From a virus: a stretch of DNA of 11,385 nt. This document shows positions 1,614 to 9,984 of this stretch, piece after piece (within the stretch, counting starts at the first letter, position 1; every line of letters starts with the position of its first letter). A program made the translations under genes and the position numbers. The notes beneath the pieces are model-generated. The model had not been told where the DNA came from and ran no database searches. It worked only from the letters and a program-made list of their open reading frames with translations. Location of the stretch: UHGV virus genome UHGV-0346646, one strand, 5' to 3'.

Positions 1614-1833
1614 GTACCCCTCCGCATTTTTTTTCGTTAGAAATAAGCGTTCTTCTTTCCTGTTCATCGCTCAGGAATACGCAGACCTCACCGCTAAGGC
1701 GTTTAAGTAAGCCGATGATTGCCCCTGATTCGCTGTCGGTCATCATGCCAGGGTAATCCTCTGCCAGTGCGCAAATAACTTCGATTTGGTGGGCGCGTTC
1801 TGCTGCCTGTTGTAGTGTGATTTCCTGGCTCAT
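1603..1833 (-). CDS. hypothetical protein (76 aa)
   Basis: ATG at 1833-1831 overlaps the stop of the upstream gene (ATGA); GGGGG upstream. Confidence 0.45.
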   Translation of the reverse strand: MSQEITLQQAAERAHQIEVICALAEDYPGMMTDSESGAIIGLLKRLSGEVCVFLSDEQERRTLISNEKKCGGVHVQ

Positions 1834-2030
1834 AAGCCTACCCCCTGACGAATACGGGCAGCAAATACCATCACGCAGCCAGCCGGAGATTGCTGGCGTG
1901 CTTCCTGTTCGCTGGTGGCCTCAATGGTAATCACGCGCGGTTGTGCCGTGCTCAGGGCGATAAAACGCCAGATGTATTTATTCAGGTTGTGCGAGTCCCG
2001 CCCTTGCGGGTGTGTGGTATGATTTAACAT
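1830..2030 (-). CDS. small protein (66 aa), possibly Icd-like; family assignment is tentative
   Basis: ATG at 2030-2028 with GAGG 5-6 nt upstream; first gene of the minus-strand operon, downstream of a strong predicted promoter. It is also the C-terminal 66 codons of the long track ORF 1830..3116, which I consider a read-through artefact. Confidence 0.5.
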   Translation of the reverse strand: MLNHTTHPQGRDSHNLNKYIWRFIALSTAQPRVITIEATSEQEARQQSPAGCVMVFAARIRQGVGL

Positions 2031-2067
2031 AGCTACCTCGATACTTTCGCTATCGTTGGTGGTTAGA

Positions 2068-2100
2068 AGCCCTGCGAGTGGTAACGACACTTGCGGGGCT
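2068..2100. promoter_or_regulatory. 13-bp-arm inverted repeat (AGCCCTGCGAGTG / CACTTGCGGGGCT, 7-nt loop) in the leader of the minus-strand operon
   Basis: Read directly: the arms pair fully if two G-U wobbles are allowed. Sits between the predicted minus-strand promoter and the start at 2030. Confidence 0.4.
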
Positions 2101-2127
2101 TTGCATTTATGCACCTTGATAATCTCA

Positions 2128-2168
2128 AGGTGTAGCCCACTATATGCTTTAGGTGTGGCCCACGTCAA
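2128..2168 (-). promoter_or_regulatory. predicted sigma70 promoter for the minus-strand small-gene operon, overlapped by two direct repeats (AGGTGTAGCCCAC 2128-2140 and AGGTGTGGCCCAC 2151-2163)
   Basis: On the minus strand: -35 TTGACG (2168-2163), 18-bp spacer, -10 TATAGT (2144-2139). The direct repeats overlap the spacer and the start site, as operator sites would. Confidence 0.4.
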
Positions 2169-2170
2169 GG

Positions 2171-2199
2171 GTTTTATTTGTGCTTTTTCTGTGTATACT
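2171..2199 (+). promoter_or_regulatory. possible promoter for the ribbon-helix-helix gene
   Basis: -10 TATACT at 2194-2199; the -35 is weak (GTTTTA region). Divergent from the minus-strand promoter. Confidence 0.3.
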
Positions 2200-2229
2200 G
2201 TCCCCCACCAATCCAACAGAGGAATAGAA

Positions 2230-2409
2230 ATGGCAACGGGTACAACAAACGCAAAATCACAAGCTCTAAAGGCTCGTGTACCACACGAAATAGTAAACGC
2301 CATGGAATCAGTGAAAGAATCAGGCGAAAGCACATCACAATTCATCATTGCGTCAATGCAAGGCGAGATCAAACGCCGCCAGCGCCGCAAGGCCAAAGAG
2401 CAGGAGTAA
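2230..2409 (+). CDS. ribbon-helix-helix (Arc/MetJ/CopG-like) DNA-binding protein, 59 aa
   Basis: ATG at 2230 with AGAGGAA Shine-Dalgarno. Protein MATGTTNAKSQALKARVPHEIVNAMESVKESGESTSQFIIASMQGEIKRRQRRKAKEQE has the strand-helix-helix pattern typical of RHH repressors. Followed by tandem plus-strand terminators. Confidence 0.6.
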   Translation: MATGTTNAKSQALKARVPHEIVNAMESVKESGESTSQFIIASMQGEIKRRQRRKAKEQE

Positions 2410-2466
2410 CCATCACCAGCGCCGTGGTGTGAGTAACTACGGCGCATTGCTATGCAGGACAACACA

Positions 2467-2640
2467 ATGACCGATAAAGAATTGACCAAAACATTATCAC
2501 CGGCACGGAAAAGACGGCGCAGAAAGATAGAGCATGAATCAGAAAGATTCGCGCCATGTGCTTTTGCCCTTGAGCAATTCCTTAAAGAGTACAGGGAAAA
2601 GCGCTCATTGCAGGTATGGCAACGAACTGAACCTGACTGA
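2467..2640 (+). CDS. possible small basic protein (57 aa)
   Basis: ATG at 2467 with a weak AGGA upstream; Lys/Arg-rich (SPARKRRRRK). Lies between the RHH gene and the plus-strand terminators. Weakly supported. Confidence 0.3.
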   Translation: MTDKELTKTLSPARKRRRRKIEHESERFAPCAFALEQFLKEYREKRSLQVWQRTEPD

Positions 2641-2719
2641 TTGCATTGCCCACCAGCCGCAAATGTGGCATTGTTGGCAATGCTCATGCGTTGGGGATAA
2701 CGTGTAGCTTGTGTCGAGG

Positions 2720-2748
2720 GGCCACCGTAGCGGGTGGCCTTTGTTTTG
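2720..2748 (+). terminator. rho-independent terminator
   Basis: Stem GGCCACC / GGTGGCC with loop GTAGCG, followed by TTTGTTTTG. Confidence 0.6.
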
Positions 2749-2843
2749 CCCGTTATTCGGCAATTGTGGCGCTTCTCCACATGGTTGATATAATCCCACT
2801 GCTCAGATTCATTTTTTGCGCAGTAGGTTAATTGTTCACAAAG

Positions 2844-2877
2844 GCGCTCCGGCAACGGGGCGCTTTTTGTTTTTATT
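2844..2877 (+). terminator. rho-independent terminator (second of a tandem pair)
   Basis: Stem GCGCTCCG / CGGGGCGC (one G-U) with loop GCAA, followed by TTTTTGTTTTTATT. Confidence 0.6.
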
Positions 2878-2882
2878 AGTTT

Positions 2883-3116
2883 GTAGAAACCTGACTCAGA
2901 GATAATGCTCATATTCTGATTGCCGTCAGGGGTGTAAGTTAAATTTACTCCCTTTTTATCATCAAACATCTGCAACGCTCTGGCGTTAACAATATTGGTT
3001 TCACTCCCGCCAGTAAGGCCGGAAATAACCGGAATAATTTCGGCAAAATTTTGCAGATTCTGTTTTTCAGGACGAACGAAGCCCCGCCCTTGTTCGGGAG
3101 AATATCCAGTATTCAT
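2883..3116 (-). CDS. BRO-N / antirepressor-like N-terminal domain ORF, probably truncated or degenerate
   Basis: First ~78 codons of track ORF 1830..3116 (…DDKKGVNLTYTPDGNQNMSIISESGFYKLI) resemble the C-terminal half of a BRO-N domain from memory. The similarity ends where the plus-strand terminator at 2844-2877 is encoded; the remaining ~350 codons have Cys/Trp/Arg-rich antisense-like composition. True end unknown. Confidence 0.3.
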
Positions 3117-4972: not shown

Positions 4973-5009
4973 CAATTAACTACACCATTAACTACACCGA
5001 TCGTTGCAC
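4973..5009. repeat. direct repeat copy 1 (contains tandem AACTACACC units), immediately upstream of and overlapping the integrase start
   Basis: caattaactacaccattaactacaccgatcgttgcac. A near-identical copy lies 234 bp away at 5207-5242; the flanks share a degenerate ACAACGTG-GAACAA motif. Confidence 0.7.
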
Positions 5010-5206
5010 AAAGGGCTACAACGTGAAACAAGCTGGAACAAGGAAAATCACAAATCTGTTTATAATCAAAAACATAATGAACAACCTGAAACATTATGAA
5101 ACGGCAAAAAACACTAATTGATAAAATATGTCCTTTTATCACTACATCAAGGCAAGCCATTGATTTAATTAAATGATTTGCACTGCAAAAAGTGCTAAAA
5201 ATCGCA

Positions 5207-5242
5207 AATTGACTACACCATTAACTACACCGATCGTTGCAC
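5207..5242. repeat. direct repeat copy 2 of the integrase-upstream repeat
   Basis: aattgactacaccattaactacaccgatcgttgcac; one mismatch against copy 1. Confidence 0.7.
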
Positions 5243-5451
5243 TGTATGAAACAACGTGGAACAAATAGACACAAGAAATATACAGGCGGGTCATCTTTCC
5301 AGGGGGAAGCGCGCCAATTCATGAGGGGCGTTAATGTCGATATGGGGATCCCCATAACGGGGCTACCTGGCTTTTTTCCGGTTAAATGTCAATCAGGCTG
5401 GTGGGTTTTACATACCCTTGATCACCGTAATGATGATCCAGATGTGCGCCT

Positions 5452-5961: not shown

Positions 5962-5994
5962 TGTGCCCCCATCGTTCTGATAGTCTGGTGTCGT

Positions 5995-6066
5995 CGGGTC
6001 CTTCCTGGAATTATGGCCCGTTACGGGGCGGCGACCTCGCGCGTTTTCACTATTTATGAAAATTTT
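5995..6066 (+). other. lambda-type cos site, copy 1 (cosN with cohesive-end sequence GGGCGGCGACCT at 6026-6037)
   Basis: gttacgGGGCGGCGACCTcgcgcgttttcactatttatgaaaattttt is near-identical to the lambda genome junction (…GTTACG / GGGCGGCGACCTCGCGGGTTTTCGCTATTTATGAAAATTTTCCGG) as I remember it. Confidence 0.75.
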
Positions 6067-6075
6067 TCGGGATCC

Positions 6076-6172
6076 ATGTCCGGTTTCTCTGCAAGTTAAC
6101 CATATGAAAAATATAAAAACATGCTTTCCATGAACCGGACATGCGCAAAAAACAGACACTAAAACCGGACAT
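6076..6172 (+). promoter_or_regulatory. cosB-like repeats: ATGTCCGGTT (6076-6085, inverted), AT-rich spacer, AACCGGACAT (6134-6143) and AACCGGACAT (6163-6172)
   Basis: One inverted plus two direct 10-bp sites with an A/T-rich stretch between the inverted pair, paralleling lambda cosB (R3 - IHF site I1 - R2 - R1). Lies directly after cosN copy 1. Confidence 0.5.
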
Positions 6173-6240: not shown

Positions 6241-6675
6241 TTACTGTTCTGTATCGGCTGATTGCTCCATGCTGGCACGGCGAACGCTTACGGCATGACG
6301 CCACCCAGCCAGAAAGCCAGCCATTTTATTTCGTGCCTTGCTCACATCTTCCGGTGAATAGCCGTAAATCTGCAAACCTTCATCAAATCGATGTTCTGTT
6401 TCTTCACTGGAGTACTCGTCACGCTCAGATGAAAGCAGCCTGGCAAACATAATTTTTTCCAGCGCACTGGTTTCTACGTGATATCTGATGGCCTCAAGAC
6501 GGCTTTTACCTGAAGACCAAAGCAATGTATGCCCGATGTGATAACCGCCAGACTTTCCGCGATCCGCATTAAGATACGGCATCCCCTGTTTGGTCCATGC
6601 GCGAATAGTGGTTCTGTTAACCTTGAAATGTTCAGCTATTTCCTGCTGACTTACAAAACAAGCTTTATCAATCAT
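6241..6675 (-). CDS. lambda Nu1-like small terminase-type protein (N-terminal winged-HTH DNA-binding domain), 144 aa
   Basis: ATG at 6675. N-terminus VSQQEIAEHFKVNRTTIRAWTKQGMPYLNADRGKSGGYHIGHTLLW aligns by eye with lambda Nu1 KKQLADIFGASIRTIQNWQEQGMPVLRGGGKGNEVLYDSAAVIKW. Shorter than Nu1 (181 aa). Lies about 90 bp downstream (minus strand) of cosN copy 2. Confidence 0.7.
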   Translation of the reverse strand: MIDKACFVSQQEIAEHFKVNRTTIRAWTKQGMPYLNADRGKSGGYHIGHTLLWSSGKSRLEAIRYHVETSALEKIMFARLLSSERDEYSSEETEHRFDEGLQIYGYSPEDVSKARNKMAGFLAGWRHAVSVRRASMEQSADTEQ

Positions 6676-6744
6676 AATGTTACCTTAACTGCATGGTTAA
6701 ATATTAATCAAGTGGTGGTGGTGTCACCTTCACGGAAAAACGTC

Positions 6745-6807
6745 ATAAATAGCGAAAACCCGCGAGGTCGCCGCCCCGTAACGGGCCATAATTCCAGGAA
6801 GGACCCG
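6745..6807 (-). other. lambda-type cos site, copy 2, inverted relative to copy 1 (cohesive-end sequence at 6765-6776 read on the minus strand)
   Basis: Reverse complement reads cgggtccttcctggaattatggcccgttacgGGGCGGCGACCTcgcgggttttcgctatttatg; 47 bp are identical to copy 1 and about 70 bp match with two mismatches. Confidence 0.75.
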
Positions 6808-6808
6808 T

Positions 6809-6830
6809 AAAAAAGCCGGATTTCTCCGGC
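6809..6830 (-). terminator. rho-independent terminator ending the capsid operon
   Basis: Minus-strand hairpin GCCGGA-GAAA-TCCGGC followed by TTTTTT, just after the stop at 6837. Confidence 0.65.
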
Positions 6831-6836
6831 CTTGTC

Positions 6837-7250
6837 TCAGATGGTTTTCAGTATGCGATCGATGTCGCCGTCATCGCCCTGGTTTCTGCCATCGTATGCC
6901 ATGCCAGCTGATACGGCTTGCGGGCTGTGCATGTCCATAAAGTTTTCAAAGGCTGCGGTAAGCTCTGGTGCAACCTTTGGGCGCTCCTGCTCTATGGTCA
7001 TGTTCAGGATTTCACGAGCATTATCGACGCTAATACATGGCACGTTTGCCATTGCACGTAACAGCGGCTGATAGTCTTTATGCTCATGAAGCGCCATAAT
7101 CGCATCAGCGCGCGGCTTGTCCTGCTCTTCCAGTTTGTTTAGTTGATATACGGCCTCATAGGTTGATAAACCTCTGTCAGCCATTGCCCGCGCTTCGGCT
7201 TTAAATTTACTCGCCAGCGGTAGCGTCATGATGCTTTCATTCGTTGCCAT
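6837..7250 (-). CDS. hypothetical protein (137 aa), last gene of the capsid operon; possible scaffold-like or capsid accessory protein (speculative)
   Basis: ATG at 7250 with GGGGG 5 nt upstream; predicted helix-rich and acidic. Function not recognised. Confidence 0.55.
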   Translation of the reverse strand: MATNESIMTLPLASKFKAEARAMADRGLSTYEAVYQLNKLEEQDKPRADAIMALHEHKDYQPLLRAMANVPCISVDNAREILNMTIEQERPKVAPELTAAFENFMDMHSPQAVSAGMAYDGRNQGDDGDIDRILKTI

Positions 7251-8665: not shown

Positions 8666-8871
8666 TATTCACCCCCGTGAACCTGATTCATACCCAGCGC
8701 CGCGCGTAAATAGGCGCGTACCTGCCAGCCTGTTGACGGCTCAACCATCGCCAGCGGATCAAGTCCTGCCGCAATGCCTGCTTTTACGTTCTGCTGGTGG
8801 CGTTCCTTGAGCGCCTTCACGATGTCGGGGCTTATGTACACCGAAACACCGCCTTTTTTCTCTTCAGCCAT
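8665..8871 (-). CDS. hypothetical protein (68 aa), first gene of the capsid operon
   Basis: ATG at 8871; stop overlaps the capsid gene start by 1 nt (TAATG). Shine-Dalgarno spacing is long (AGAGGA ~12 nt upstream), so the start is uncertain. Confidence 0.45.
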   Translation of the reverse strand: MAEEKKGGVSVYISPDIVKALKERHQQNVKAGIAAGLDPLAMVEPSTGWQVRAYLRAALGMNQVHGGE

Positions 8872-8904
8872 AGTAAGAAATTCCTCTTTGACTTAAAAAA
8901 TCAT

Positions 8905-8953
8905 AACTGGATGTTCATCCAGCTCTGATTATAATCATGATTGCATTTTGTGC
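8905..8953 (-). promoter_or_regulatory. predicted capsid-operon promoter with overlapping palindromes
   Basis: Minus strand: -35 TTGCAC (8953-8948), 16-bp spacer, -10 TATAAT (8931-8926) inside the palindrome GATTATAATC. The perfect inverted repeat CTGGATG-TT-CATCCAG (8905-8920) lies at about +1 to +16. Confidence 0.4.
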
Positions 8954-9036
8954 AATGATGTTGAGTTGCGTTGCAAATTATGAAATGATTATCCCGATCA
9001 TGTGTGTCAGTGCACCAAAAAGCCTCATATGCAAAA

Positions 9037-9073
9037 GCCCGATAAGCCACCTCTGACCTTATCGGGCTTTTTT
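9037..9073. terminator. orphan terminator-like hairpin in the 415-bp intergenic region
   Basis: GCCCGATAAG - 11-nt loop - CTTATCGGGC followed by TTTTTT on the plus strand (AAAA precedes it). No obvious plus-strand gene upstream. Confidence 0.35.
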
Positions 9074-9248
9074 ATCTGCCTGCAAAGATGTCGAACGAAA
9101 ATTAACCACAACCATCATCTTTTTTGCATCAAAACAATTAAAAACAATAAATTACGCTCATGATGATGATGACGATAAAATCACAAAAATGCGCTTTTTT
9201 CCGCGCCTCCCGCCCCGTGTTCAGGCCCACCCCGCCAGGAGGACCCGT

Positions 9249-9271
9249 AAAAAAGCCGGATTGCTCCGGCT
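9249..9271 (-). terminator. rho-independent terminator after the SSB gene
   Basis: Minus-strand hairpin AGCCGGA-GCAA-TCCGGCT followed by TTTTTT. Sequence is near-identical to the terminator module at 6791-6840. Confidence 0.6.
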
Positions 9272-9286
9272 TCTGTCTCTCGTCGC

Positions 9287-9709
9287 TTAAAACGGTATGT
9301 TATCCCCGTACGGATCATCATTCCCCGCCTGTTGTTTTGCCCTGTTCAGCGCGTCAGTAGCCTGGCCCTGTTGACCTTTTTTGCCGCCCAGTCGCGCCGT
9401 TCGCGCACTGATTACACTGTCTGCGATAACCTGCCAGCCCTGCCGCGTTTCTCCGTTCTGCCCAGTCCACTGGCTGATCTGCATGTTACCCGCCACGCTC
9501 AGGAGTTCACCCTTGCGGTGCCTTTCCAGTGCTTCGGCCTGTCTGCCAAATGCCAGGACGGATAACCACATCGTCGCCGTTCCGTCATCTGCCTGGCTGC
9601 ACGGAAGGGGGACCGCCATACGCGCCAGCGTCATCGGTGTGCCCTTGCTGGTCTGTTTTACCTGCGGGTCGTCCACCAGCCGCCCGTAAGCTGCTATCTG
9701 TGCTGTCAT
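9287..9709 (-). CDS. ssb: single-stranded DNA-binding protein (SSB, OB-fold)
   Basis: Aligns by eye with E. coli SSB: G.L..DP.V, W..V..FG..AE, RKG, W.G..G..R. C-terminal acidic tail ends NDDPYGDNIPF (compare SSB …DFDDDIPF). GAGGTGG Shine-Dalgarno. Confidence 0.75.
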   Translation of the reverse strand: MTAQIAAYGRLVDDPQVKQTSKGTPMTLARMAVPLPCSQADDGTATMWLSVLAFGRQAEALERHRKGELLSVAGNMQISQWTGQNGETRQGWQVIADSVISARTARLGGKKGQQGQATDALNRAKQQAGNDDPYGDNIPF

Positions 9710-9765: not shown

Positions 9766-9984
9766 CTACCGCTCTGTCAGCGTGGCAAAATTTGCCGCCG
9801 TCGTGGTCATGAATGCGCTTATCAGTTCGGGATGTGCTTTCGCGTATCCTTCCCCCGCGTGGCGGTCTATCGTTCTGATTGCCACCTTTAAAGCGTGCTC
9901 TGTCATGTCTAACGCGCGATATTTCGGTTCTGTTCTGTCTCTGCGTTTTTTGAGTGATTTATTAAATTTCCCTGAAGTGTGCAT
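9766..9984 (-). CDS. hypothetical small protein (72 aa or shorter from an internal Met)
   Basis: ORF between the origin and ssb; the Shine-Dalgarno is poorly placed, so the start is uncertain. Confidence 0.4.
   Translation of the reverse strand: MHTSGKFNKSLKKRRDRTEPKYRALDMTEHALKVAIRTIDRHAGEGYAKAHPELISAFMTTTAANFATLTER

What the first reader, a model, noticed from the sequence alone, without database searches (positions are those of the whole stretch)
6791..6840. Duplicated terminator module, one copy fused to cos
The ~45-bp sequence CAGGAAGGACCCGTAAAAAAGCCGGATTTCTCCGGC at 6791-6840 recurs at 9231-9280 with one indel and a few substitutions. Both copies act as minus-strand terminators, after the capsid operon and after ssb. 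The GGGTCCTTCCTGG portion also abuts cosN copy 1 at 5996-6008.
Basis: seen in the sequence. Interest (0 to 1): 0.4.

Follow-up and report, generated by a model that had tools for sequence, protein, structure and literature searches.

The report
Terminator hairpin fused to cosQ, twice
The repeated 45-bp module is a transcription terminator joined directly to cosQ, the stop signal of a lambda-type DNA-packaging (cos) site. Its second copy marks a third cos site, borrowed from Shiga-toxin-type phages, which has not been described for this well-studied E. coli phage satellite family.

Summary
The repeat is real. Window 6794-6838 matches 9235-9279 (42 matches, 2 mismatches, 2 one-base indels); the 31-nt core differs at one base and no shuffle reproduces it.

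The window is one complete, circularly permuted copy of an EcCICFT073-family PICI, a phage satellite of E. coli.

Read on the minus strand, each copy is a GC-rich hairpin (GCCGGAG-N-AATCCGGC), a T6 tract, two bases, then GGGTCCT. GGGTCCT is cosQ, the 7-bp packaging-termination subsite of lambda-type cos.

- Copy 1 follows the capsid-like operon and opens the published, functional cos1 upstream of rppA.
- Copy 2 follows ssb and opens a third cos. This cos3 is absent from strain CFT073, which has perC there. It is about 90% identical to the Rz-terS intergenic (predicted cos) region of VT1-Sakai/Stx phages, whose small terminase belongs to another family (DUF1441).

So both copies, not one, are fused to a cos.

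The arrangement recurs across the satellite family with three unrelated hairpin sequences. It was absent from all 76 phage-context cos sites in an unbiased sample.

Terminator activity and cos3 function are inferred, not shown.

Verdict: an ordinary terminator, a known kind of site, and a new variant, a three-cos satellite. Moderate interest.

The parts
6815..6833 (-). Terminator hairpin 1. Core stem GCCGGA/TCCGGC with loop GAAA at 6815-6830; A/G-U extension to 6833. It begins 3 nt after the stop codon (6837-6839) of the 137-aa last gene of the capsid-like operon.
   Evidence: Sequence. RNA fold of the 56-nt segment: -18.3 kcal/mol, z = -2.4. The hairpin ends exactly at a T6 run. Conserved after the p137 homologue in 86 relatives.
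6809..6814 (-). T6 tract of terminator 1. It doubles as the 'TTT' of the published extended cosQ (TTTACGGGTCCTTCC).
   Evidence: Fig. S5 of PMC6092414.
6800..6806 (-). cosQ (GGGTCCT) of the published cos1.
   Evidence: The 7-bp cosQ is highly conserved and needed for packaging termination (PMC4669245).
6765..6776 (-). cosN cohesive-end 12-mer GGGCGGCGACCT of cos1, flanked by CG on both sides, 23 nt after cosQ as in lambda.
   Evidence: identical to the lambda cosN given in Fig. S5.
6680..6764 (-). cosB of cos1. It is satellite-specific and is recognised by the RppA-TerS complex according to the literature. It contains a promoter-like match at 6727->6700.
   Evidence: Phage matches stop about 30 nt past cosN. 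Identity with 'CFT073 cos.1'. RppA dependence. Promoter-like site is a consensus match only.
6241..6675 (-). rppA (144 aa). Its start codon is at bp 102 counted from the first base of the cohesive end.
   Evidence: RppC structure 6hlk matched at E = 5e-31. Same protein accession in HM670 and CFT073. c1503 = RppA, 144 residues.
5996..6172 (+). Published cos2, inverted relative to cos1 and without a hairpin. cosQ at 5996-6002, cosN at 6026-6037. The cosB is 93% identical to the cos region of phage PhiR12.
   Evidence: Inverted repeat I1, 78 nt, 91% complementary. 'CFT073 cos.2'. Phage match 5994-6172 lying between Rz and Nu1.
9255..9274 (-). Terminator hairpin 2. Core stem GCCGGA/TCCGGC with loop GCAA at 9255-9270; extension to 9274. 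It begins 12 nt after the ssb stop (9287-9289).
   Evidence: RNA fold of the 56-nt segment: -20.1 kcal/mol, z = -2.5.. The same hairpin ends the ssb-perC unit in CFT073 with no cos attached.
9249..9254 (-). T6 tract of terminator 2. Similarity to the phage cos region begins here.
   Evidence: phage-type matches start at query positions 37-39, which fall in the T tract.
9240..9246 (-). cosQ (GGGTCCT) of the third cos site (cos3).
9204..9215 (-). Predicted cosN cohesive-end 12-mer GGGCGGGAGGCG of cos3. CG flanks both sides, and it lies 24 nt after cosQ, as in the VT1-Sakai-type phages. The left half, GGGCGG, is identical to lambda.
   Evidence: Alignment with lambda, VT1-Sakai and Stx2d phage 112808. 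Phage 12-mers of this class listed. Natural variation at bp 7-12 is common.
9084..9203 (-). cosB of cos3, phage-like. It has an R3-like TCATCATCATCATGA at bp 44-58 (9172->9158), an AT-rich spacer, and an inverted GATGATGG at bp 97-104 (9119->9112).
   Evidence: 87-91% identity to VT1-Sakai and Stx1/Stx2 phages in the Rz-terS intergenic region. Motif positions.
9026..9078 (.). Second, bidirectional hairpin (GCCCGATAAG...CTTATCGGGC) that closes the cos3 cassette on its downstream side. It is the backbone sequence shared with CFT073.
   Evidence: Inverted repeat I13. Alignment with CFT073..

Best explanation
The window is one excised, circularly permuted EcCICFT073-family PICI, a phage satellite of E. 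coli that sits between phoQ and roxA.

The repeated module is a composite of two things. On the minus strand it is a Rho-independent terminator (hairpin GCCGGAG-N-AATCCGGC plus T6) joined, with only two bases between, to cosQ. cosQ (GGGTCCT) is the subsite that tells a translocating lambda-type terminase to stop and cut at the next cosN.

The module occurs twice because the satellite has two co-oriented slots, each with the layout 'operon end, terminator, cos':
- Slot B: capsid-like operon, terminator, cos1, rppA. cos1 has the lambda-type cohesive end GGGCGGCGACCT and a satellite-specific cosB read by RppA-TerS.
- Slot A: pri...ssb, terminator, cos3. cos3 has a VT1-Sakai/Stx-phage-type cohesive end (predicted GGGCGGGAGGCG) and a phage-like cosB.

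Similarity between the copies fades after cosQ because the two cos sites belong to different packaging-specificity classes.

Proposed working:
- The hairpins end the replication-module and capsid-module transcripts. This keeps RNA polymerase out of cos and out of rppA, which then depends on its own promoter.
- The cosQ-cosN-cosB units let helpers with different small terminases package the island. Nu1-type TerS acts through RppA at cos1. A PhiR12-type phage would act at the inverted cos2. DUF1441-type TerS phages would act directly at cos3.

What is shown: the anatomy, the homology to phage Rz-terS intergenic (predicted cos) regions, conservation across the family, and, from the literature, the function of cos1 and cos2.

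What is inferred: terminator activity, cos3 function, and the reason for the tight abutment. That reason could be transcriptional insulation, compaction, or capture of phage cos by recombination at the T tract.
For: - Identity of the element. It is 99.9% identical to E. coli HM670 and 97% to CFT073, matching in two pieces that meet at a 10-bp att core. RppA is confirmed.
- Published cos sites. cos.1 and cos.2 map to 6812->6680 (minus) and 5992->6200 (plus). Both are experimentally functional.
- Phage counterparts of cos3. All phage matches to 9084-9253 lie between Rz and terS/terL. Order and spacing of cosQ, cosN and the CG flanks are kept. The cognate TerS is DUF1441, not Nu1.
- cos3 is absent from CFT073. 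There, perC precedes the same hairpin.
- Frequency. The ssb-hairpin-cos3 allele is in 197 of 5,426 complete E. coli genomes. The CFT073-type perC allele is in 30.
- Hairpins. They fold at -18 and -20 kcal/mol and end at the T run. Across three hairpin sequence families, 97.6% of cells pair, with two compensatory pairs and one G-U.
- Slots in relatives. The hairpin after p137 is always followed by cosQ (86 cases). After ssb it is followed by cosQ in 48 cases and not in 3. After perC it is never followed by cosQ (62 cases).
- Phage comparison. In the unbiased sample, 0 of 76 phage-context cos sites have a strong hairpin with T>=5 at cosQ; overall the split is 83 without and 4 with. No hairpin-cosQ module was found in 50,697 phage records.
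- A relative, L082, shows the same two-slot layout with a different second hairpin.
Against: - No transcript 3'-end or reporter data exist for either hairpin. The tool's own terminator scan missed both, because its greedy stem extension consumes the T tract.
- cos3 has never been tested. Its 12-mer differs by one base from the closest phage 12-mers, and I found no exact copy in a phage. One base in it is polymorphic between near-identical islands (9207).
- Phage similarity ends about 130 bp past cosN, so a distal R1-like element may be missing.
- Genomes carrying the cos3 island mostly lack a resident prophage with that cos (1 place per record).
- The survey of satellite sites is biased, because about half the loci were retrieved with the hairpin pattern itself.
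Confidence: 0.75

Rival explanations
1. cos3 is a dead hitch-hiking fragment of a phage cos region. On this view the second copy is just the ssb terminator with a non-functional remnant next to it, so the repeat says nothing about packaging.
For: - The 12-mer differs from the phage versions, and I did not find it in any phage.
- It carries a SNP between islands that are 99.9% identical.
- Only about 130 bp of cosB is retained.
- The model island lacks cos3 yet is transferred efficiently.
Against: - cosQ is exact, the left half of cosN and both CG flanks are intact, and the R3-like and inverted R2-like motifs sit at lambda-like distances.
- Changes at bp 7-12 of cosN are tolerated in lambda-like phages.
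- The allele is kept in 197 complete genomes.
- Several different cos types occupy the same slot in relatives, which suggests turnover under selection rather than decay.
Confidence: 0.15
2. The hairpin acts at the DNA level as part of an extended packaging-termination signal. For example, it could be a cruciform or pause site that helps terminase recognise cosQ, rather than, or as well as, being an RNA terminator.
For: - The hairpin abuts cosQ at a fixed distance (T6-8 plus 2 nt) in three unrelated hairpin families.
- Lambdoid phages carry a palindrome (TGATAAnnnTTATCA) plus TTTT at the same place.
Against: - The same hairpin occurs 62 times after perC with no cos (CFT073).
- cos2 has no hairpin yet supports transduction.
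- The cos.1 fragment drawn in Fig. S5 starts at TTTATGGG, without the hairpin, and still works.
- One G-U variant fits RNA pairing but not DNA pairing.
- The T tract is on one side only.
Confidence: 0.07
3. The repeat is a recent duplication or gene conversion inside this one element and has no selected role.
For: - The 31-nt core matches at 30 of 31 positions.
- Gene conversion between cos copies does occur in this lineage: the cosQ-cosN stretch of cos1 and cos2 (about the first 47 nt of the repeat) is identical here but not in CFT073.
Against: - The two slots keep different loop bases across more than 100 relatives: A after p137, mostly C or T after ssb.
- The flanks differ.
- Relatives keep the architecture with a different hairpin sequence.
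Confidence: 0.03

Closest known systems
EcCICFT073 cos1/cos2 with RppA (Fillol-Salom et al. 2018, PMC6092414; 2019, PMC6739421)
   Same: Same island family, same integration site, identical RppA. cos1 lies upstream of rppA and cos2 is inverted downstream, with the same cosQ and cosN.
   Different: - This island has a third cos at the ssb slot, where CFT073 has perC.
- The hairpin next to cosQ is not mentioned in these papers; I searched both main texts for 'terminator'.
- Here the cosQ-cosN stretch of cos1 has been homogenised with that of cos2.
Phage lambda cos (cosQ-cosN-cosB; Feiss laboratory, PMC4669245, PMC9026076)
   Same: 7-bp cosQ GGGTCCT, 23-24 nt to a 12-nt G-rich cohesive end flanked by CG, and an R3-like element about 45-60 bp in.
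   Different: - Lambda and 83 of 87 phage-context sites have an AT-rich palindrome, not a strong GC terminator, before cosQ. From general knowledge, lambda late transcription must cross cos.
- cos3 pairs with phages whose TerS is DUF1441 rather than Nu1.
Satellites that carry a copy of the helper's cos (P4, SaPIbov5/SaPIbov4)
   Same: cos3, and cos2 with its PhiR12-like cosB, look like direct copies of helper cos sites that need no redirecting protein. SaPIbov4 also has two putative cos sites.
   Different: Here direct mimicry and the Rpp-redirected cos1 coexist in one island, with three cosB types.
Rho-independent (intrinsic) transcription terminators
   Same: GC-rich stem, tetraloop and U tract, lying just after a stop codon and on the same strand.
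   Different: The U tract runs straight into a DNA packaging signal, and the same hairpin is reused at two operon ends.

Membership tests
Rho-independent terminator | GC-rich stem-loop immediately followed by a U/T tract | tested here: met
   6-bp GC core (9-10 bp with extension), tetraloop and T6. The core alone folds at -10.4 and -10.6 kcal/mol, the 56-nt segments at -18.3 and -20.1, and the hairpin ends at the T run.
Rho-independent terminator | Lies downstream of, and on the same strand as, the end of a transcription unit | tested here: met
   The extended stems begin 3 nt after the p137 stop and 12 nt after the ssb stop, on the minus strand.
Rho-independent terminator | Stem pairing kept when the sequence changes | tested here: met
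   97.6% of cells pair, with 2 compensatory pairs and 1 G-U across 14 distinct variants. These represent few independent events.
Rho-independent terminator | Transcripts actually end there | not testable with these tools
   Needs Term-seq, 3'-RACE or a reporter assay.
Lambda-type cos site (applied to cos3, 9084-9253) | 7-bp cosQ GGGTCCT upstream of cosN in the right orientation | tested here: met
   9240-9246, 24 nt before the 12-mer, the same spacing as in VT1-Sakai-type phages.
Lambda-type cos site (applied to cos3, 9084-9253) | cosN: 12-nt cohesive-end sequence with conserved left half and CG flanks | tested here: met
   ACG|GGGCGGGAGGCG|CG. The left half is identical to lambda, and the right half varies as it does in natural phages. 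The nick positions are predicted, not measured.
Lambda-type cos site (applied to cos3, 9084-9253) | cosB homologous to that of a phage with a cognate TerS/TerL | tested here: met
   87-91% identity over about 170 bp to the Rz-terS intergenic region of VT1-Sakai and Stx phages. terS (DUF1441) and a lambda-A-like terL lie downstream in those phages.
Lambda-type cos site (applied to cos3, 9084-9253) | Supports terminase cutting and packaging | not testable with these tools
   No experiment exists for cos3. cos1 and cos2 of CFT073 were tested in the literature.
EcCICFT073-family PICI | int, alpA, pri, rpp and cos in PICI order at the phoQ/roxA site, about 11 kb | tested here: met
   Annotation of HM670 and CFT073, Pfam AlpA, SSB, capsid E-like and decoration D-like hits, an RppC structure match, and the att core.

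The most novel reading that the evidence does not exclude
The EcCICFT073 family is built on a conserved two-slot 'terminator-cos' architecture into which cos cassettes of different packaging specificities are swapped. Islands like this one carry three cos sites matched to three helper classes:
- Nu1-type TerS, acting through RppA at cos1.
- PhiR12-type phages, acting at cos2.
- DUF1441-TerS Stx-type phages, acting at cos3.

[quoted passage not shown] It would also mean that a strong terminator welded to cosQ is a signature that separates satellite cos sites from phage cos sites. That signature would exist either because satellites must shield cos from transcription or because phage cos is captured at terminator T tracts.
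Probability: 0.35. Interest if true: 0.6.

Novelty: new variant of a known kind. Interest (0 to 1): 0.45.

Why it matters
EcCICFT073 is the model Gram-negative phage satellite. Its packaging story (two cos sites and RppA) rests on one strain that lacks the third cos.

Among complete E. coli genomes, the ssb-hairpin-cos3 allele is more frequent than the CFT073-type perC allele: 197 genomes against 30. Carriers include Nissle 1917, ATCC 25922 and UM146.

If cos3 works, these islands could be mobilised by Stx-type lambdoid phages whose small terminase RppA was not shown to target. That would widen their helper range. It would also matter for PICI-based delivery tools and for gene flow between uropathogenic, commensal and Shiga-toxin-producing E. 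coli.

The terminator-cosQ junction also gives a simple sequence signature for telling satellite cos sites from phage cos sites.

Tried and rejected
- Built-in terminator scan. It missed both hairpins because it extends the stem into the T tract. I replaced it with my own T-run-anchored folding.
- Genome-contig scan with TTTTT..GGGTCCT..ACGGGGCGG. It gave 9 hits, nearly all chance matches in unrelated MAGs, and was not informative.
- Rfam at E<=1 and ARAGORN on the window. Neither found a relevant RNA family or tRNA.
- Sensitive blastn of the module against 50,697 phage records. It gave only insignificant partial hairpin matches.
- Literature searches for 'PhiR12' and for 'cos3' with PICI. Nothing relevant turned up.
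- First attempt to call a site 'phage' by a downstream ORF of 550 aa or more. It mislabelled satellites that encode a protease-capsid fusion, so I redid it with TerL homology.
- An early T-run regular expression misclassified TTTTTTAT junctions. This was corrected.
- Calling the protease-capsid islands 'cf-PICIs'. I rejected this because the cf-PICI paper ties that family to HNH-type packaging.
- Reading the hairpin as a REP or mobile repeat. I rejected this because it is a 16-nt stem at operon ends only, about two per island.

Full report
**Observation.** The repeat is real. The 31-nt core at 6800-6830 recurs at 9240-9270 with one mismatch, and none of 200 shuffles gave any match at up to 3 mismatches. 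The best local alignment is 6794-6838 against 9235-9279: 42 matches, 2 mismatches and 2 one-base indels. GGGTCCTTCCTGG is at 5996-6008 on the plus strand.

**What the window is.** It matches E. coli chromosomes end to end in two pieces: 99.9% to strain HM670 and 97% to CFT073. The pieces meet at a 10-bp att core, AAATATGTCC, at 5124-5133. The window is therefore exactly one excised, circularly permuted copy of the island that sits between phoQ and roxA. This is the EcCICFT073 family of phage-inducible chromosomal islands (PICIs). Almost all genes are on the minus strand, in this order:
- int and alpA
- pri and ssb (9709->9287)
- a 68-aa gene, a lambda-E-like capsid gene, a lambda-D-like decoration gene and a 137-aa gene (ending at 6837)
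- rppA (6675->6241)
- a 93-aa gene

The Pfam hits are, and the RppC crystal structure 6hlk is matched at E = 5e-31.

**Anatomy of the repeat.** Read on the minus strand, each copy is GCCGGAG(A/C)AATCCGGC - TTTTTT - AC - GGGTCCT. The first part is a canonical intrinsic terminator: a 6-bp GC stem extendable to 9-10 bp, a tetraloop and T6. The 56-nt segments fold at -18.3 and -20.1 kcal/mol, and the hairpin ends exactly at the T run. The extended stems begin 3 nt after the p137 stop and 12 nt after the ssb stop. The tool's own terminator scan missed both because it extends the stem into the T tract. The last seven bases, GGGTCCT, are cosQ. This is the highly conserved 7-bp subsite required for terminase to recognise and nick the downstream cos at the end of packaging (PMC4669245). 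GGGTCCT occurs three times in the window, each time followed by a cosN-like sequence.

**Copy 1 is the left edge of the published cos1.** Fig. S5 of Fillol-Salom et al. 2018 prints 'CFT073 cos.1' and 'cos.2'.
- cos.1 is the minus-strand site at 6812->6680, upstream of rppA and in the same orientation. Its 12-mer GGGCGGCGACCT is at 6765-6776, and the rppA start falls at bp 102, the value Murialdo and Feiss give for PICI-C.
- cos.2 is the plus-strand site from 5992. Its cosQ is at 5996-6002 and its cosN at 6026-6037.

The two sites form a 78-nt inverted repeat around rppA. Both were shown to be functional in CFT073, and cos1's cosB is the one recognised by the RppA-TerS complex. The authors' extended cosQ, TTTACGGGTCCTTCC, already includes three T's of what is, in the island, the terminator's T tract. 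The hairpin itself is not mentioned; I searched both main texts for 'terminator'.

**Copy 2 is the left edge of a third cos.** After the second hairpin the minus strand reads T6-AC-GGGTCCT, then 24 nt, then ACG|GGGCGGGAGGCG|CG, followed by about 120 bp.
- This stretch is 87-91% identical to VT1-Sakai and several Stx1/Stx2 phages.
- In every such phage the match lies between Rz and terS/terL, where a lambda-type cos belongs.
- An R3-like TCATCATCATCATGA sits at bp 44-58, and an inverted GATGATGG at bp 97-104. These are lambda-like positions.
- The small terminase of these phages is DUF1441, not Nu1, so this is a different specificity class from lambda, phi80 and 21.
- CFT073 lacks this site. 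It has perC followed by the same hairpin and then the same second hairpin.
- No paper in the searchable library mentions a third cos in these islands.

The ssb-hairpin-cos3 allele is found in 197 of 5,426 complete E. coli genomes, including Nissle 1917, ATCC 25922 and UM146. The CFT073-type perC allele is found in 30.

- After p137, the hairpin has an A in the loop and is always followed by cosQ (86 cases).
- After ssb, the loop base is mostly C or T, and cosQ follows in 48 cases and not in 3.
- After perC, cosQ never follows (62 cases).
- Several cohesive-end and cosB types occupy the slots.
- A relative, L082, has ssb-hairpin-cos, then a protease/capsid fusion, then a different hairpin (GGCGGC-GATA-GCCGCC), T7, a second cos, and a DUF1441 TerS homologue.
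- Across the three hairpin families, 97.6% of cells pair, with two compensatory pairs and one G-U variant.

Phage cos sites look different. In 108 loci newly retrieved with a generic cosQ-cosN pattern, 0 of 76 sites followed by a TerL homologue have a strong hairpin with T>=5. Overall the split is 83 without and 4 with, and the 4 are L082-like elements. Phages instead carry an AT-rich palindrome plus TTTT (GATGATAAT-N-ATTATCATTTTGC). No phage among 50,697 records has the module. One caveat applies: the satellite counts are biased, because about half of those loci were retrieved with the hairpin pattern itself.

**Mechanism, with what is shown and what is inferred.**
- Shown: the composite anatomy, the homology of each cos to phage Rz-terS intergenic (predicted cos) regions, the conservation of the layout, and, from the literature, the function of cos1 and cos2.
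- Inferred: the hairpins terminate the replication-module and capsid-module transcripts. cos, and rppA downstream of cos1, are thereby shielded from read-through. A promoter-like match inside cosB1 at 6727->6700 (consensus only) could drive rppA.
- Inferred: cos3 lets phages with DUF1441 TerS package the island directly, without RppA.
- Inferred: cos2, whose cosB is 93% identical to phage PhiR12, does the same for that phage type.

The exact abutment could reflect selection for insulation or compactness. It could also be a recombination scar, because phage similarity begins inside the T tract and the hairpin plus T6 is the only sequence shared by the left junctions of the cos3 and perC alleles.

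[quoted passage not shown] A terminase that starts at cos1 will meet the co-oriented cos3 about 8.9 kb later. Cutting there would give molecules with mismatched ends. This may be a cost with some helpers, as was seen when deleting cos2 raised lambda-mediated transfer.

**Rivals.**
- cos3 could be a dead remnant. Its 12-mer differs by one base from the phage versions and is polymorphic between near-identical islands.
- The hairpin could be part of the packaging signal at the DNA level. Against this, the same hairpin occurs without cos, cos2 works without one, and the published cos.1 fragment is drawn without it.
- A recent duplication is unlikely, because each slot keeps its own loop base across the family.

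**Verdict.** The terminator and the cos are known kinds of element. The third, Stx-phage-type cos and the recurrent terminator-cosQ fusion in satellites make this a new variant within a well-studied system.

Noticed in passing
window 5124-5133, and the whole window: The window is exactly one excised circular island: 11,385 bp, which is 11,395 bp minus one 10-bp att core (AAATATGTCC). It is permuted so that it starts inside the primase gene, so it probably comes from a circular or concatemeric assembly rather than from a chromosome.
   Followed up: yes
window 5995-6072 and 6730-6807: The cosQ-cosN stretch of cos1 and cos2 (about the first 47 nt of the inverted repeat) is identical here. In CFT073 the two sites differ there, including an indel. 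This suggests gene conversion between the inverted cos copies flanking rppA in this lineage. The 78-nt inverted repeat could also invert the rppA segment.
   Followed up: partly
window 5994-6172: The cosB of the published cos2 is 93% identical to the cos region (between Rz and Nu1) of the PhiR12 phages deposited in 2025. The original papers reported finding no phage-like cosB in the island.
   Followed up: partly
window 9766-9768 (SNP at 9768): An A (C in HM670) creates a premature stop. It shortens the gene just upstream of ssb from 92 to 72 aa relative to HM670.
   Followed up: partly
window 9207: One of the 10 differences from HM670 falls inside the predicted cos3 cohesive end: GGGCGGGAGGCG here, GGGCGGGAAGCG in HM670. 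Five of the 10 differences cluster in 8847-9097.
   Followed up: partly
window 8955-8895, minus strand: TTGCAC-16 nt-TATAAT (8955->8928) is followed at once by a hairpin plus T6 (8924->8895), just before the ribosome-binding site of the 68-aa gene. A promoter followed immediately by a terminator hints that the capsid-like operon is controlled by antitermination.
   Followed up: no
window 4974-5048 and 5207-5281: A 75-nt direct repeat (79% identity) with internal AATTNACTACACC units flanks the att core on both sides. These may be integrase arm-type binding sites.
   Followed up: no
window 1830-3116, minus strand: A 428-aa open reading frame runs from just after alpA to the annotated 66-aa Icd-like gene, antisense to two small annotated plus-strand genes. 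It has no Pfam hit. It recalls the long eta/kil reading frame of P4-like immunity regions described in PMC10111431.
   Followed up: partly
L006 (lambda 48,440-48,460); L003, L004 and many IMG/VR phage loci: Lambdoid phages share a palindrome, GATGATAAT-N-ATTATCA, plus TTTT directly upstream of cosQ. From memory, it resembles the Fur-box consensus. I do not know of a described function for it.
   Followed up: no
L082 10695-11237; L129: Relatives of the island carry a DUF1441 TerS homologue (49% identical to VT1-Sakai TerS) after the slot-B cos, in the position of rpp. This may be an Rpp-like redirector for the other TerS family. These relatives also encode a ClpP-protease/capsid fusion in place of the E-like and D-like genes.
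   Followed up: partly
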